This document shows, one piece after another, positions 37,264 through 48,515 of a stretch of DNA of 64,000 bases (positions within the stretch are counted from its first letter, which is position 1; every line of letters starts with the position of its first letter). The position numbers were made by a program, and so were the translations under genes. The DNA comes from an uncultured Nitrososphaerota archaeon (GTDB lineage Archaea; Asgardarchaeota; Njordarchaeia; Njordarchaeales; Njordarchaeaceae): positions 1 to 64,000 of the forward strand of contig CAZFGR010000001.1 in the NCBI GenBank assembly GCA_964518475.1. The letters run 5' to 3'. Below the pieces are notes generated by a model, which ran no database searches, had not been told where the DNA came from, and saw nothing but the letters and a program-made list of their open reading frames with translations.

Positions 37264-37839
37264 ATGTTCGAAGTAGAAATGAAAGCACGAGTCACTAATC
37301 TCCACGCATTACACGAATTCCTTTCCTCAAATAATTTTGAAAAGAAGACCTATGAAACAATAGATTATTATTTTAAACATCCCTGCCGCGATTTTATTCC
37401 TAGAGACGAAGAACTCCGGGTAAGAATAGAGAAAGAGAATAATATCCCACGCATACTAGTTACTTATAAAGGCTCCTCATTAAGCAAAGATCGAAGTGCG
37501 AGGGAGGAGATAGAGATTCCCGTAACTAGTATAGGAATTATCAAACTCCTAATGGGACTCGGTTTTGAAATAGATCTGGTAAAAAGGAAAAAAGGTTTCA
37601 TTTTTTCAAAGAAAGACTTGAAAATCTCTGTATGTGAGGTTAGTGGGATTTTGCAAAGAAAACTGATTAATTTGGGACACTTCGTTGAGGTTGAAAAATT
37701 GGTGAAGAGAAAGGAAGATATTAATCATGCTAGAGAGGAAATCCTTAATATATTAAGGAGCCTTCCTGGAGTAGGAGGCATAGAGACCAAGTATTATACT
37801 GAATTGGTTAAGGAACTTGCTGAGAAGACTCATATTTGA
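37264..37839 (+). CDS. CYTH-domain protein (class IV adenylate cyclase-like)
   Basis: EVEMK, DYYF.HPCRDF, LRVR, TYKG, REEIE, LGHFVEVE. Confidence 0.85.
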   Translation: MFEVEMKARVTNLHALHEFLSSNNFEKKTYETIDYYFKHPCRDFIPRDEELRVRIEKENNIPRILVTYKGSSLSKDRSAREEIEIPVTSIGIIKLLMGLGFEIDLVKRKKGFIFSKKDLKISVCEVSGILQRKLINLGHFVEVEKLVKRKEDINHAREEILNILRSLPGVGGIETKYYTELVKELAEKTHI

Positions 37840-38303
37840 ATTCTTGCCGCCAATTTTTCAGCCCATCCCCTAATAATCGATCTAGCCTCGGTCAAAGCCT
37901 CCATTATTTTCCCTATAAACTCTATTAAAAATACCCTCATTGATTCATGCACTCTCTTCGACGCCACATCTGTAGCTTTTATGAGAAGAGAAATATCATA
38001 TCCCTCCTCTGGTTTGTCTAATATCAGCGGAAATCTTCTAGTAATAGCCTTCGCGACCTCCCTTATCAGTAGGCGATCTAATTCATCTCGGGCCGGTATC
38101 TTAACTGATAATATAGCTGAATTAACTGTTTTCTTTAAAAGAATCTCAGGCGGACCCGGGAATTTATATTCCCTATAACCAGCTCTCTCGCACTCTAAAC
38201 ACAGGACACAAGGATAATCGTAACCCTTCTTATCACAATTAAGTACCCTTAAATCTTTAAGAACATCCAGTAATTCATCTATCGAACGGAAAGTTGCCGC
38301 CAA
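37830..38303 (-). CDS. Arp2/3 complex subunit 4 (ARPC4)-like protein
   Basis: TVNSAILSVKIPARDELDRLL..KPEEGYDISLLI vs ARPC4 [33 protein letters not shown]; similar length. Confidence 0.8.
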   Translation of the reverse strand: MAATFRSIDELLDVLKDLRVLNCDKKGYDYPCVLCLECERAGYREYKFPGPPEILLKKTVNSAILSVKIPARDELDRLLIREVAKAITRRFPLILDKPEEGYDISLLIKATDVASKRVHESMRVFLIEFIGKIMEALTEARSIIRGWAEKLAARIQI

Positions 38304-46725: not shown

Positions 46726-46938
46726 CTAGAAAATTATCCATGCAGAGATTACAAGCAAGATAAATAACAGAGAGATCGCGGTGACTGCCCTTGGTCCTAC
46801 CTTTATGCCCATTTCTTCCTCTTCATAGAATCTTAAAAGTCCAGCCCCCGTAGGAGGCGTTGTTAATCGCCTCGATTTTCTTCTAGCTCTTTTTTCTTCT
46901 AATTCTTCCTCTTCATACTCCCAATAATCCTCTGACAT
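46726..46938 (-). CDS. secG: Preprotein translocase subunit Sec61beta
   Basis: GAGLLRFYEEE..GIKVGP followed by one C-terminal TM helix. Confidence 0.88.
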   Translation of the reverse strand: MSEDYWEYEEEELEEKRARRKSRRLTTPPTGAGLLRFYEEEEMGIKVGPRAVTAISLLFILLVISAWIIF

Positions 46939-46959
46939 ATATCATACACTTCCTCTAAA

Positions 46960-47271
46960 TCATCCAAGCATATCAGCAGAACTTATTTGGAACGAGACAA
47001 TGTTGTATTCACGAAGAATATCCCCAACCTTCTTACCAGCAAAGTATATTGGTTCTCCTCCACCAGTCAATCCTATCCTTCCGCTTTTTATGCCTAATTT
47101 TTCAGCTGCTTCAAGCACTACTCGCTCCATTGAATCATTTATTGTCGTTCTGATCGCTATTGTTTTTCTCAGATTATCCGCCCTCTGGAAATATAGTGTA
47201 ACTATTTCGGGCAATTCTTCGTGTTCCTCAGTTTGCTTAAGCTCAGCGATTTTTTTATCACGCGATTCCAT
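46960..47271 (-). CDS. Second UFM1-like modifier, ending in a free single Gly (…DMLG)
   Basis: Paralogous to 23799-24089 (VTLYF/VELYF; DSMERVVLEAAEKLG/DPISVVVAKAAKLLE; KKVGDILREY..SFQI..DMLG/KTVKEIVEKY..SFAI..DLLG). Confidence 0.72.
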   Translation of the reverse strand: MESRDKKIAELKQTEEHEELPEIVTLYFQRADNLRKTIAIRTTINDSMERVVLEAAEKLGIKSGRIGLTGGGEPIYFAGKKVGDILREYNIVSFQISSADMLG

Positions 47272-47377
47272 TCATTTCACCGCATTAAACACTAAAATCA
47301 ACCTAATACTTCTCAAGTCATTTAGCTTACTAAAATCTATCTTAAAATGCACCTCACAGGGAAAGCCCAATCATCGA

Positions 47378-47779
47378 CTATTTCAATATCTCGTCGAGAT
47401 GCTTCTTAGCCTTCTTTTTCAATTTTTCATCTTTCATCAGATTAGATTCTCTAATCTCAGCAAATTCGTCCTTAAGAGAATCCATGCTCACTTTGAGATC
47501 ACTAAGAATCTGTGCGAAAGAATCTAGTTTACCAACTAATTTACTAATACTTATGGACAATTTCAAGATATGATCCTCAATTCTCTTCATCATATTAACT
47601 AATTCAGAAGTATTCTCATTAATCGTTGATAAAACCTCATTCCAAGCCTCCACTAATGATTTTAGAGATTCGGCGCTTGGTACTGGTCCCCGGGGCGTCT
47701 CTATAACATCTATAACTATAACCTTTTCCTTCTTCTCTGATTCGCCCTTACTCAATACTCTCACTCCCACAATACTCAC
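47378..47779 (-). CDS. Coiled-coil hypothetical protein
   Basis: Heptad-rich helical sequence; overlaps the 3' end of the E1 gene. Confidence 0.6.
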   Translation of the reverse strand: MSIVGVRVLSKGESEKKEKVIVIDVIETPRGPVPSAESLKSLVEAWNEVLSTINENTSELVNMMKRIEDHILKLSISISKLVGKLDSFAQILSDLKVSMDSLKDEFAEIRESNLMKDEKLKKKAKKHLDEILK

Positions 47780-48515
47780 AGTTTCTCCTTCTCTTTACCT
47801 TATCGTCACTTAATACTGTAATACTATTGTTACGCAAGCTAATTATTATCCTAGGAGCCACGTCATTATTATGTAATATCTTTAATCCTTGATCTACCTG
47901 AATAGCCGCTATAATACTTATGGTTGTGGGTAATGAGGCGTCACAAGATCCGGATTCCTCCTCCCCTCCCAGCTCCACCAGAGTTCCCTCTCCAAAATAA
48001 CACCCTAGACAAGGTGTCTTATATGGAATAACCGTTATAACACGCCCCCCTAGACCATCAGTACTTGTTCCTCCATCGATAAGAGGCTTCCGAAGTTTTA
48101 CAATCCAGTAATTAATCTCTAGCCTAGCCTCTACATTATCAAAGCATGTAAAAACAAGATCGCACTTCTTTAAAATCTCTGGAAGCTTCTCCCAACCTAT
48201 AACATCGACATAGTACGTTTCTATATCTGGTGCAAAATTGCCTAGAATCTTCGATATCTTCGCCAGTTTATTAGCTAACGCATTTACTTTCGGTTTACCA
48301 ATATCCTCTACCTCAAAACCTAGTCTATTGAAGTTCTCCGGCCCGACAATATCACGATCCACAAGAATTAGCTTCCCAATACCTAACCTGCCCAGCATCT
48401 CAGCAACCAAAACTCCTAAACCTCCAACTCCTAAAACACATGCGACTTTACTATGCACCAGCTCTGGATCCACTCCCGCCCTTTTTACTCTCTCCAGCAT
48501 GGGGGGTAGAGCCAC
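47748..48515 (-). CDS. Second UBA5-like E1 activating enzyme
   Basis: GVGGLGVLVAEMLGRLGIGKL, NFNRLGF, TCFDNVEAR, PCLGC, GSCDASLPTT, C-terminal CEYC. Confidence 0.85.
   Translation of the reverse strand: MALPPMLERVKRAGVDPELVHSKVACVLGVGGLGVLVAEMLGRLGIGKLILVDRDIVGPENFNRLGFEVEDIGKPKVNALANKLAKISKILGNFAPDIETYYVDVIGWEKLPEILKKCDLVFTCFDNVEARLEINYWIVKLRKPLIDGGTSTDGLGGRVITVIPYKTPCLGCYFGEGTLVELGGEEESGSCDASLPTTISIIAAIQVDQGLKILHNNDVAPRIIISLRNNSITVLSDDKVKRRRNCEYCGSESIE

What the first reader, a model, noticed from the sequence alone, without database searches (positions are those of the whole stretch)
46726..48515. Second UBA5-like E1 and a mature UFM1-like gene lie directly upstream of Sec61beta
Seen: the UFM1-like paralog ends exactly in DMLG-stop, 21 bp before Sec61beta on the same strand, with the E1 paralog two genes upstream. 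Known: eukaryotic UFMylation of uL24/RPL26 releases 60S subunits from the SEC61 translocon. Inference: the gene neighbourhood hints that the UFM1-translocon link predates eukaryotes. Adjacency alone may be coincidence.
Basis: partly seen in the sequence, partly recalled or inferred. Interest (0 to 1): 0.85.

Follow-up and report, generated by a model that had tools for sequence, protein, structure and literature searches.

The report
UFM1-like gene joined to Sec61beta
A Njordarchaeal (Asgard) archaeon encodes a UFM1-type ubiquitin-like protein and its UBA5-like activating enzyme directly in front of the translocon subunit Sec61beta; the pairing is an operon in this genus and a gene fusion in a sister species, but it was not found in the other Asgard lineages sampled, so it does not show that the UFM1-translocon link predates eukaryotes.

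Summary
On the minus strand lie PriL, a UBA5-like E1 (E1b), a coiled-coil protein (CC133), a 103-aa ubiquitin-like protein ending DMLG-stop (Ubl2), a 21-nt spacer, then Sec61beta. The E1 clade matches UBA5 about 50 bits better than ThiF/MoeB. The Ubl2 model matches UFM1 structures best (Z 10.9-12.4), and a Pfam-level UFC1 E2 lies elsewhere on the contig.

The adjacency is not unique to this genome. All five other genomes of the genus that carry Ubl2 keep Ubl2 before Sec61beta. Four have a JAMM protease gene between them whose stop overlaps or nearly abuts the Sec61beta start. In the closest sister species the two genes are fused in frame (178 aa, eight variants from several independent assemblies).

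The link is young. In the sister family Sec61beta lies 4-9 kb away behind a TFB gene. In other Asgard lineages the homologous Ubl/E1 clusters have no Sec61beta nearby. No UFL1, DDRGK1 or UfSP homologue was found.

The gene neighbourhood is real and gives a testable hint. The claim that the UFM1-translocon link predates eukaryotes is not supported.

The parts
46726..46938 (-). Sec61beta (archaeal SecG/Sbh1 type), 70 aa. It has an acidic then basic cytosolic N-terminus and a single C-terminal membrane helix (residues 51-70). It is the last gene of the Ubl2 unit.
   Evidence: Pfam PF03911 at 6.2e-13, 49 bits against a cut-off of 27. It is the only copy in the genome.
46939..46959 (-). 21-nt spacer between the Ubl2 stop and the Sec61beta ATG, with a GAGGA ribosome-binding-like core. 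There is no room for a separate archaeal promoter outside the Ubl2 coding sequence.
   Evidence: Sequence read directly. In the sister species G002 the stop and spacer are replaced by GCT CCA CCG (Ala-Pro-Pro), which fuses the two frames.
46960..47271 (-). Ubl2: a UFM1-like beta-grasp modifier of 103 aa. It has a disordered N-terminal 20 aa and ends exactly in Gly103 (DMLG-stop), so it needs no C-terminal processing.
   Evidence: AF2 model at pLDDT 82.9. The top nine PDB entries are all UFM1, Z 10.9-12.4. The highest Foldseek TM-scores also go to UFM1 chains. Orthologues occur in the genus and in the sister family, with an invariant C-terminal SA[DE]MLG. It is a distant paralogue of Ubl1 at 23799-24089.
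47272..47377 (-). 106-nt intergenic spacer upstream of Ubl2. It is AT-rich, with a TTTTAAGATA TATA-like element and GGTGA before the ATG. It is the likely promoter of a Ubl2-Sec61beta transcript. This is inference only.
   Evidence: Sequence read directly. No RNA data were available.
47378..47779 (-). CC133: a 133-aa protein of no known family. A short beta-strand-like segment and an invariant IETPRGxVP motif precede a long coiled coil. It is always encoded right after E1b.
   Evidence: No Pfam family reaches its cut-off. The alignment across two families shows the invariant motif. It is linked to E1b in families f1, f2 and f3. The atlas search gave no informative hits.
47748..48515 (-). E1b: a UBA5-like activating enzyme of 255 aa (250 aa if it starts at Met6, coordinate 48500). 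It has the nucleotide loop GVGGLG, catalytic Cys191 (codon 47943-47945) and a zinc site at C169/C172/C246/C249. It lacks the C-terminal UFM1- and UFC1-binding tail of UBA5.
   Evidence: Pfam ThiF at 1.2e-39. PDB best hit is UBA5 at 3e-26 against ThiF at 1e-15. The profile scores 147.7 against 96.5 bits, with the catalytic Cys and CxxC aligned.
48451..49833 (-). PriL (DNA primase large subunit). Its reading frame overlaps the start of E1b. PriL-E1b-CC133 is the deepest conserved linkage of this module, seen across the order.
   Evidence: Pfam PF04104 at 8.5e-42. The same order with overlapping frames is found in families f1 and f2.
23799..26642 (-). Paralogous first module: a JAMM protease of 361 aa (25557-26642), E1a (24728-25546), the UFC1-like E2a of 175 aa (24208-24735), and Ubl1 (23799-24089), which ends LLG-DDF and so needs processing.
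   Evidence: ORFs are. E1a is 50% identical to E1b. The E2a profile hits only UFC1 chains at E 1e-5 to 8e-4, ahead of canonical E2s. The same cluster is found in relatives and in other Asgard families.

Best explanation
The stretch encodes the order-wide UFM1-type conjugation module of Njordarchaeales, with Sec61beta riding as the last cistron of the modifier's transcription unit. The inferred mechanism follows the families involved. E1b adenylates the free C-terminal Gly103 of Ubl2 and takes it as a thioester on Cys191. It passes Ubl2 to a UFC1-like E2 encoded 131 kb away on the same contig (E2b, G000:C1:178890-179438), which transfers it to lysines of unknown targets. A JAMM protease reverses this: JAB2 in relatives, and only the paralogue at 25557-26642 in this genome. 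CC133 is a fixed but unexplained partner of E1b. The ancestral arrangement in the genus was two convergent units, PriL-E1b-CC133 and Ubl2-JAB2-Sec61beta. In the lineage of this genome and its closest sister the second unit was inverted and JAB2 was deleted, which put Ubl2 21 nt in front of Sec61beta. In the sister species a further deletion fused them. Shown here: the gene identities, the conservation pattern and the fusion. Inferred: co-transcription and the enzymology. My reading is that Sec61beta, a 70-codon housekeeping gene, was captured behind this operon in one genus, much as it sits behind TFB in the sister family. The adjacency by itself therefore records co-expression, not a demonstrated biochemical link to the translocon. 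It is a derived trait, not one ancestral to Asgard archaea and eukaryotes.
For: Gene identities are. Ubl2 before Sec61beta is kept in the window and in G001, G002, G004, G005 and G006. JAB2 lies between them in four of these, and its stop overlaps the Sec61beta ATG by 4 nt in two. Three further metagenome contigs show the same block. Flanks differ (TIM, CC133-E1b, an ARPC4-like gene, a transposase-like gene), so the block moved as a unit. JAB2 is missing from G000 and G002 only. In family f2, Ubl2-JAB2 is kept, Sec61beta lies 4-9 kb away in variable orientation in four of five genomes, and it sits directly behind TFB in the three loci examined. The Ubl2 profile matches only 16 of 400 Asgard genomes. 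The distant matches are Ubl-E2a-JAMM clusters without Sec61beta in the 1.5 kb held on each side. A Helarchaeal JAMM-E1 locus has no Sec61beta within 8 kb. In G037 the E1 and Sec61beta are 1.46 Mb apart. E2b co-occurs with the module across the order.
Against: A block that survives an inversion and several flank changes, and then fuses, is what selection for co-expression or a functional tie would produce. In the fusion species the only Ubl2 copy and the only Sec61beta copy are made as one polypeptide, while E1b, CC133 and E2b are retained. That is hard to reconcile with complete functional indifference. No transcript data exist to confirm co-transcription. Sampling outside the order looked at only a handful of loci.
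Confidence: 0.55

Rival explanations
1. The link is functional. The Ubl2 pathway acts at the SecYE-beta translocon. Sec61beta, whose cytosolic N-terminus carries Lys16, Lys21 and Lys46, or the ribosome docked on it, is a target of Ubl2. The operon, and the fusion in the sister species, deliver modifier and target together. This would be an archaeal counterpart, parallel or ancestral, of ER-ribosome UFMylation.
For: The operon is kept through rearrangements, with translational coupling of JAB2 and Sec61beta. A natural in-frame Ubl2-APP-Sec61beta fusion exists in eight variants from NCBI, ENA, JGI and Logan assemblies on contigs up to 70 kb. Ubl2 is structurally UFM1-like, with a UBA5-like E1 and a UFC1-like E2. 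In eukaryotes UFM1 on uL24 releases 60S subunits from SEC61 (PMC10937380, abstract seen).
Against: The linkage is confined to one genus. The sister family, which has the same complete module, puts Sec61beta behind TFB. No UFL1, DDRGK1 or UfSP homologue was found. E1b is linked more deeply to PriL and an SMC-like string than Ubl2 is to Sec61beta. There is no biochemical or expression evidence.
Confidence: 0.25
2. Ubl2 serves Sec61beta in cis, as ubiquitin does in eukaryotic ubiquitin-ribosomal-protein fusion genes. Co-translation, or fusion followed by JAMM cleavage at MLG|APP, helps the synthesis, solubility or 1:1 dosing of the tail-anchored Sec61beta. The released Ubl2 then enters its ordinary conjugation pathway, which has nothing to do with the translocon.
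For: In the fusion the Ubl is N-terminal and ends in the conserved MLG before a three-residue linker. Precursor-type C-terminal extensions after the Gly (DS, AS, ITGST) occur in three of five f2 orthologues and in all Ubl1 paralogues, so cleavage after the Gly is a normal step in this family. JAMM genes are fixed partners of both modules.
Against: The fusion species lacks JAB2 and keeps only the paralogous JAMM. Most species of the genus make the two proteins separately. The Ub-ribosomal-protein analogy rests on my own knowledge and was not tested here.
Confidence: 0.12
3. E1b and Ubl2 form a sulfur-carrier pair of the MoaD/ThiS/SAMP-MoeB type, used for cofactor or tRNA thiolation rather than protein modification. 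In that case the neighbourhood with Sec61beta is meaningless.
For: E1b belongs to the ThiF/MoeB superfamily and is annotated as HesA/MoeB/ThiF in public records. A separate, more MoeB-like ThiF gene also exists on contig C12.
Against: The profile prefers UBA5 over ThiF/MoeB by about 50 bits and keeps the UBA5 catalytic Cys motif. Ubl2 ends in a single Gly after Leu, not in Gly-Gly, and its fold matches UFM1 best. Dedicated UFC1-like E2s and JAMM proteases co-occur with it. No rhodanese or sulfurtransferase gene lies in the module.
Confidence: 0.05

Closest known systems
Eukaryotic UFM1 system (UFM1, UBA5, UFC1; the UFL1-DDRGK1-CDK5RAP3 ligase; UfSP proteases)
   Same: The modifier fold matches UFM1 best (Z up to 12.4) and has a single exposed C-terminal Gly. 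The E1 is UBA5-like, with its catalytic Cys inside the adenylation domain and a four-Cys zinc site. UFC1-family E2s are present.
   Different: Ubl2 has no detectable sequence similarity to UFM1. E1b lacks the UBA5 C-terminal UFM1- and UFC1-binding tail. The protease partners are JAMM metalloproteases, not UfSP cysteine proteases. No UFL1 or DDRGK1 was found. There are extra fixed partners: CC133 and a four-CxxC protein next to E2b. The targets are unknown.
Asgard archaeal Ufm1 homologues reported by structural modelling (Nat Microbiol 2026, PMC12962969), and the prokaryotic UBA5 and Asgard UFL1/DDRGK1 homologues of PMC10183829
   Same: These are Asgard-encoded, structure-level UFM1 relatives with UBA5 homologues in prokaryotes.
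   Different: The main text of PMC12962969 does not mention Sec61, Njordarchaea, UBA5 or UFC1. The text of PMC10183829 was searched only for 'Asgard' and 'archaea', and it reports UFC1 as exclusively eukaryotic. I did not check whether the Njordarchaeal Ubl1/Ubl2 family is among the homologues in those papers.
Ubiquitin-ribosomal protein fusion genes of eukaryotes (Ub-eL40, Ub-eS31); from my own knowledge
   Same: In the sister species the modifier is made as an N-terminal fusion to a small housekeeping protein of the translation and translocation machinery. It must be cleaved after the C-terminal Gly to become active.
   Different: The partner is a tail-anchored translocon subunit, not a ribosomal protein. 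The fusion is confined to one species-level cluster. Cleavage was not shown.
Caldiarchaeum subterraneum ubiquitin operon with an Rpn11-type JAMM protease (PMC6043591, PMC3082918)
   Same: Both are archaeal gene clusters that combine a beta-grasp modifier, an E1, an E2 and a JAMM protease that matures and removes the modifier.
   Different: That system is ubiquitin-type (Gly-Gly end, Uba1-like E1, canonical E2, RING E3). This one is UFM1/UBA5/UFC1-type and is split over several loci.

Membership tests
UFM1 (ubiquitin-fold modifier 1) | Beta-grasp fold closer to UFM1 than to other ubiquitin-like proteins | tested here: met
   The AF2 model has pLDDT 82.9. On VIA re-alignment of Foldseek hits, ranks 1-9 are all UFM1 entries (Z 10.9-12.4, rmsd 1.6-2.2 over 74-81 residues for seven of them). 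The next family, the TBK1 ULD, scores 10.4 and ubiquitin-type entries score about 9.
UFM1 (ubiquitin-fold modifier 1) | Sequence membership (Pfam PF03671, or a profile match to UFM1 chains) | tested here: not met
   PF03671 finds nothing in the genome at E <= 10. Profiles of 11 and of 18 family members find no UFM1 chain in the PDB at E <= 10.
UFM1 (ubiquitin-fold modifier 1) | Single C-terminal Gly available for activation (mature UFM1 ends in Val-Gly) | tested here: met
   Ubl2 ends in Leu-Gly followed by a stop. SA[DE]MLG is invariant in 11 orthologues.
UFM1 (ubiquitin-fold modifier 1) | Covalent conjugation to lysines of target proteins through UBA5 and UFC1 | not testable with these tools
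   This needs biochemistry. Only the presence of the enzyme genes is shown.
UBA5-type E1 | ThiF adenylation domain that scores best against UBA5 | tested here: met
   Pfam ThiF at 1.2e-39. The clade profile scores UBA5 at 2.8e-42 (147.7 bits) against ThiF at 1.1e-26 (96.5 bits) and MoeB at 1e-23.
UBA5-type E1 | Catalytic Cys within the adenylation domain (human Cys250 in CAASLPTTM), plus a CxxC...CxxC zinc site | tested here: met
   Cys191 in SCDASLPTT aligns with the UBA5 motif. C169/C172 align with the UBA5 CxxC. C246/C249 are present.
UBA5-type E1 | C-terminal extension carrying the UFM1-interacting and UFC1-binding sequences | tested here: not met
   E1b ends six residues after the second CxxC, at 255 aa. 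Whether CC133 supplies this function is unknown. The complex prediction gave no verdict (see Tried and rejected).
UFC1-type E2 (partner required for a UFM1-type cascade) | Pfam PF08694 above its cut-off somewhere in the genome | tested here: met
   G000:C1:178890-179438 scores 30.1 bits against a cut-off of 25. It is present in 12 of 14 genomes of the order. The E2a profile hits only UFC1 chains at E <= 8e-4.
Sec61beta | Pfam PF03911 above its cut-off, with a tail-anchored topology | tested here: met
   49 bits against a cut-off of 27. There is a single hydrophobic stretch at residues 51-70, at the C-terminus.
Eukaryote-like ribosome/translocon UFMylation pathway (the UFL1-DDRGK1 ligase acting on uL24 at SEC61) | Presence of UFL1 (PF09743), DDRGK1 (PF09756) and a UfSP protease (PF07910) | tested here: inconclusive
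   None reaches its cut-off in this genome, which is 91% complete. Divergent homologues could escape the Pfam models.
Conserved UFM1-like/Sec61beta gene neighbourhood | Adjacency on the same strand in relatives of the same genus | tested here: met
   Found in six of six genomes that hold Ubl2. One is a fusion and four have JAB2 between the two genes. Three more metagenome contigs show it.
Conserved UFM1-like/Sec61beta gene neighbourhood | Adjacency in other families of the order and in other Asgard lineages, as an ancestral link would require | tested here: not met
   In f2 the genes are 4-9 kb apart or on another contig, with Sec61beta behind TFB. There is none in the f20, f26 and f27 loci, on the Helarchaeal contig, or in G037. 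None of eight long Sec61beta open frames elsewhere contains a Ubl.

The most novel reading that the evidence does not exclude
The Njordarchaeal UFM1-type system works at the protein-conducting channel. Ubl2 is attached to Sec61beta or to the ribosome docked on SecYE-beta. The natural Ubl2-Sec61beta fusion of the sister species is then a genetically hard-wired version of that conjugate or its precursor. UFM1-type modifiers would have been recruited to co-translational translocation in archaea, either independently of eukaryotes or before them.
Probability: 0.2. Interest if true: 0.85.

Novelty: new variant of a known kind. Interest (0 to 1): 0.5.

Why it matters
UFM1 is the least understood of the ubiquitin-like modifiers. 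Its best-established role is at ER-bound ribosomes on the SEC61 channel. Asgard UFM1 relatives have only just been reported, from structure predictions, with no context or function. This work defines a complete and compact archaeal UFM1-type module: the modifier, a UBA5-like E1, a UFC1-like E2, JAMM proteases and two unexplained fixed partners. It also shows that in one genus the modifier gene became an operon partner of Sec61beta, and in one species a fusion partner. That gives experimenters a concrete, cheap hypothesis to test with five small thermophile proteins. It also shows that gene order cannot be used to argue that the UFM1-translocon connection is ancestral.

Tried and rejected
- Complex prediction of E1b + Ubl2 + CC133, with CC133 as the scored partner, gave no verdict (score 0.00). 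It counts neither for nor against binding.
- Searches for RNA sequencing runs listed no RNA holder. Four DNA runs from sediment or vent metagenomes hold the stretch. Co-transcription therefore could not be checked, and read laying was not used.
- Sequence routes to UFM1 all came back empty: Pfam Ufm1 on the genome, phmmer of Ubl2 against the PDB (only a weak ubiquitin hit at E 0.08), and profiles of 11 and 18 members against the PDB.
- BLASTP of Ubl2 against Ubl1 found nothing. Their relationship shows only with phmmer or profiles.
- The representative-based structural search (pdb_via_wide) listed generic ubiquitin-like domains at Z 9-10, and UFM1 was not among its 50 rows. The re-alignment of Foldseek hits is what resolves UFM1 as the best match.
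- The atlas search for CC133 gave only coiled-coil look-alikes below 0.9.
- The sigma-70 promoter and intrinsic-terminator scan found no more than in shuffled sequence, and it does not model archaeal promoters.
- I checked whether long open frames around Sec61beta in eight other Asgard genomes hide Ubl fusions. They do not.
- A phylum-wide Sec61beta search lists only 150 of its matches, so no exhaustive distance statistic between E1 or Ubl and Sec61beta was computed.
- I considered and rejected assembly error as the source of the fusion. Eight distinct 178-aa variants come from independent assemblies.
Full report
**What is there.** On the minus strand the window carries, in this order:
- an SMC-like gene (51135-54401) and two small genes;
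- PriL (48451-49833);
- a ThiF-family E1 (E1b, 47748-48515);
- a 133-aa coiled-coil protein (CC133, 47378-47779);
- a 103-aa protein ending DMLG-stop (Ubl2, 46960-47271);
- a 21-nt spacer;
- Sec61beta (46726-46938);
- triose-phosphate isomerase and RpoB.

The spacer reads TTTAGAGGAAGTGTATGATAT and holds a ribosome-binding-like GAGGA. A 106-nt AT-rich spacer with a TATA-like element precedes Ubl2.

**Organism.** Public records of the nearest relatives are named Candidatus Njordarchaeota or Njordarchaeales, and one is Ca. Njordarchaeum guaymaensis. The genome is a 2.33-Mb assembly, 91% complete.

**Is it a UFM1-type system?**
- *The E1.* E1b's best solved relative is UBA5, at 3e-26 against 1e-15 for ThiF. 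A profile of the Asgard clade scores UBA5 at 147.7 bits and ThiF at 96.5 bits. Cys191 and the first CxxC align with the UBA5 catalytic Cys motif and zinc site. E1b stops right after the second CxxC, so it lacks the UBA5 C-terminal tail.
- *The modifier.* Ubl2 has no sequence match to UFM1. Its AF2 model (pLDDT 82.9) is a beta-grasp. When Foldseek's hits are re-aligned, the nine best entries are all UFM1 (Z 10.9-12.4), about two Z units above the next family (TM-scores agree).
- *The E2s.* The genome has a Pfam-level UFC1 protein (E2b, C1:178890-179438, 30.1 bits against a cut-off of 25). A second E2, in the window's first cluster, has a profile that finds only UFC1 chains.
- *What differs.* The proteases are JAMM enzymes, not UfSP. 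UFL1, DDRGK1 and UfSP were not found.

The label 'UFM1/UBA5/UFC1-type' is therefore justified at the level of fold and enzyme family, but the system is not a copy of the eukaryotic pathway.

**Two modules.**
- The window's first cluster (23799-26642) is JAMM-E1a-E2a-Ubl1. Ubl1 needs C-terminal processing.
- The second module is the older one in this order. Ubl2 with a JAMM gene (JAB2), E1b with CC133, and E2b occur in all five genomes of the sister family f2, which showed no Ubl1 match.
- E1b always follows PriL, with overlapping frames, and CC133 always follows E1b.
- CC133 has an invariant IETPRGxVP motif before its coiled coil. Its role is unknown.

**The link to Sec61beta.** Five other species of the genus carry Ubl2.
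- In G001, G004, G005 and G006 the order is Ubl2-JAB2-Sec61beta on one strand.
  - In G004 and G006 the JAB2 stop overlaps the Sec61beta ATG by 4 nt.
  - In G001 they are 8 nt apart.
- Three more metagenome contigs show the same block.
- The flanks differ between species. On the Ubl2 side lie TIM (divergent) or a transposase-like gene. On the Sec61beta side lie CC133-E1b-PriL (convergent) or an ARPC4-like gene.
- The window and its closest relative G002 (RpoB 91% identical) have the block inverted, so that everything from PriL to RpoB reads one way. Both have lost JAB2.
- In G002 the stop codon and spacer are replaced by Ala-Pro-Pro. This gives one 178-aa Ubl2-Sec61beta protein.
- The fusion is not an assembly error. 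Eight distinct 178-aa variants (99% identical) come from NCBI, ENA, JGI and Logan assemblies on contigs up to 70 kb. NCBI annotates them simply as Sec61beta.
- The fused gene holds the only Sec61beta match in that genome and the only Ubl2 orthologue found there.

**How far the link reaches.**
- In family f2, Ubl2-JAB2 is kept, but Sec61beta lies 4-9 kb away in four genomes and on another contig in the fifth. Its orientation varies, and it sits directly behind a TFB gene in the three loci I examined.
- In f3 and f4, Sec61beta has unrelated neighbours.
- The Ubl2 profile matches 16 of 400 Asgard genomes. The distant matches, in families f20, f26 and f27, include Ubl-E2a-JAMM clusters with no Sec61beta in the 1.5 kb held on either side.
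- A Helarchaeal JAMM-E1 locus has none within 8 kb.
- In the complete genome G037 the UBA5-like E1 and Sec61beta are 1.46 Mb apart.
- Eight other Asgard Sec61beta genes with long upstream open frames contain no Ubl.

The linkage was therefore assembled inside one genus, from genes that already lay within a few kilobases of each other.

**Reading.** By simple chance, a given gene follows either of two Ubl genes in a genome of about 2,300 genes roughly once in a thousand. If any of about a hundred ribosome, SRP or translocon genes on either side would have been read as meaningful, the prior rises to about 15%. Both figures are my estimates. Persistence through an inversion, several changes of flank and a fusion argues for selection on co-expression.

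Two facts argue that Sec61beta is a small gene that rides behind whatever operon is at hand. The sister family has the same module but places Sec61beta behind TFB. And E1b has a deeper tie to PriL than Ubl2 has to Sec61beta.

My odds are:
- about 55% for capture into the operon without a direct biochemical tie;
- 25% for a true functional link to the translocon;
- 12% for a cis-chaperone or precursor role of the Ub-ribosomal-protein kind;
- 5% for a sulfur-carrier role.

In none of these does the gene order bear on events before eukaryotes, because the arrangement is derived within Njordarchaeales.

**Literature.** Asgard Ufm1 homologues have been reported from structural modelling in nine clades (PMC12962969). 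UBA5 homologues in prokaryotes, and UFL1 and DDRGK1 of Asgard origin, have been reported too (PMC10183829). The main text of PMC12962969 does not mention Sec61, Njordarchaea, UBA5 or UFC1. PMC10183829 was searched only for 'Asgard' and 'archaea', and it reports UFC1 as exclusively eukaryotic. No paper in the library holds Asgard, Sec61 and UFMylation together. The operon, the fusion and the order-wide module with CC133 therefore appear to be undescribed.

**Not resolved.** Co-transcription could not be checked because no RNA run was listed. The targets of Ubl2 are unknown, as are the roles of CC133 and of the four-CxxC protein beside E2b. It is also unknown which protease cleaves the fusion. 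The complex prediction for CC133 gave no verdict.

Noticed in passing
G000:C1:178890-179820 (L069:1429-2360, minus strand), about 115 kb beyond the window end: The Pfam-level UFC1 E2 (E2b) is preceded by a 127-aa protein with four CxxC pairs, and the two genes overlap by 4 nt. The same pair occurs in G010 (L111) and G008 (L112), so it is conserved across three families. No Pfam family reaches its cut-off (DUF4428 scores 27.1 against 27.8 bits). It is a candidate zinc-binding E3 or adaptor of the Ubl2 pathway.
   Followed up: partly
window 37830-38303 (-): This is an ARPC4-like protein (ARP2/3 complex subunit 4, PF05856 at 2.3e-10), a eukaryotic signature protein. In G004, G006 and contig L107 its homologue lies directly behind Sec61beta.
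   Followed up: no
L049:1740-2675 (-), L047:535-1419 (+), L043:1770-2702 (-) (family f2): In the sister family Sec61beta sits directly behind a TFB (TFIIB) gene, and in G010 the reading frames overlap. This is another unrelated operon partner for the tiny Sec61beta gene.
   Followed up: partly
window 47378-47779 (-) and orthologues (alignment A4): CC133 carries an invariant IETPRGxVP motif after a short alternating hydrophobic strand, followed by a coiled coil. It is always encoded after the UBA5-like E1 and belongs to no known family. In G005 and L110 the corresponding reading frame is about 293-298 aa.
   Followed up: partly
window 48451-54401 (-): An SMC-like ATPase (1088 aa, SMC_N plus a weak hinge match), two small proteins with no family, then PriL and E1b form one tightly packed same-strand string. 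The string is also seen in G005, and PriL-E1b frames overlap across the order.
   Followed up: partly
window 46726-46938 (-) against other Asgard Sec61beta genes (L113-L120): Sec61beta of this genus starts with an acidic run (MSEDYWEYEEEELEE..., or MSWEWEEEEEEE in relatives) before the usual basic patch. The eight other Asgard Sec61beta sequences inspected start directly with the basic patch.
   Followed up: no
window 25557-26642 (-): The 361-aa JAMM protease of the first module has an HxH...SxxD motif in its N-terminal half. By eye, a beta-grasp-like segment and a coiled coil follow it. Homologues accompany the UBA5-like E1 in Helarchaeota and in other Asgard families.
   Followed up: no
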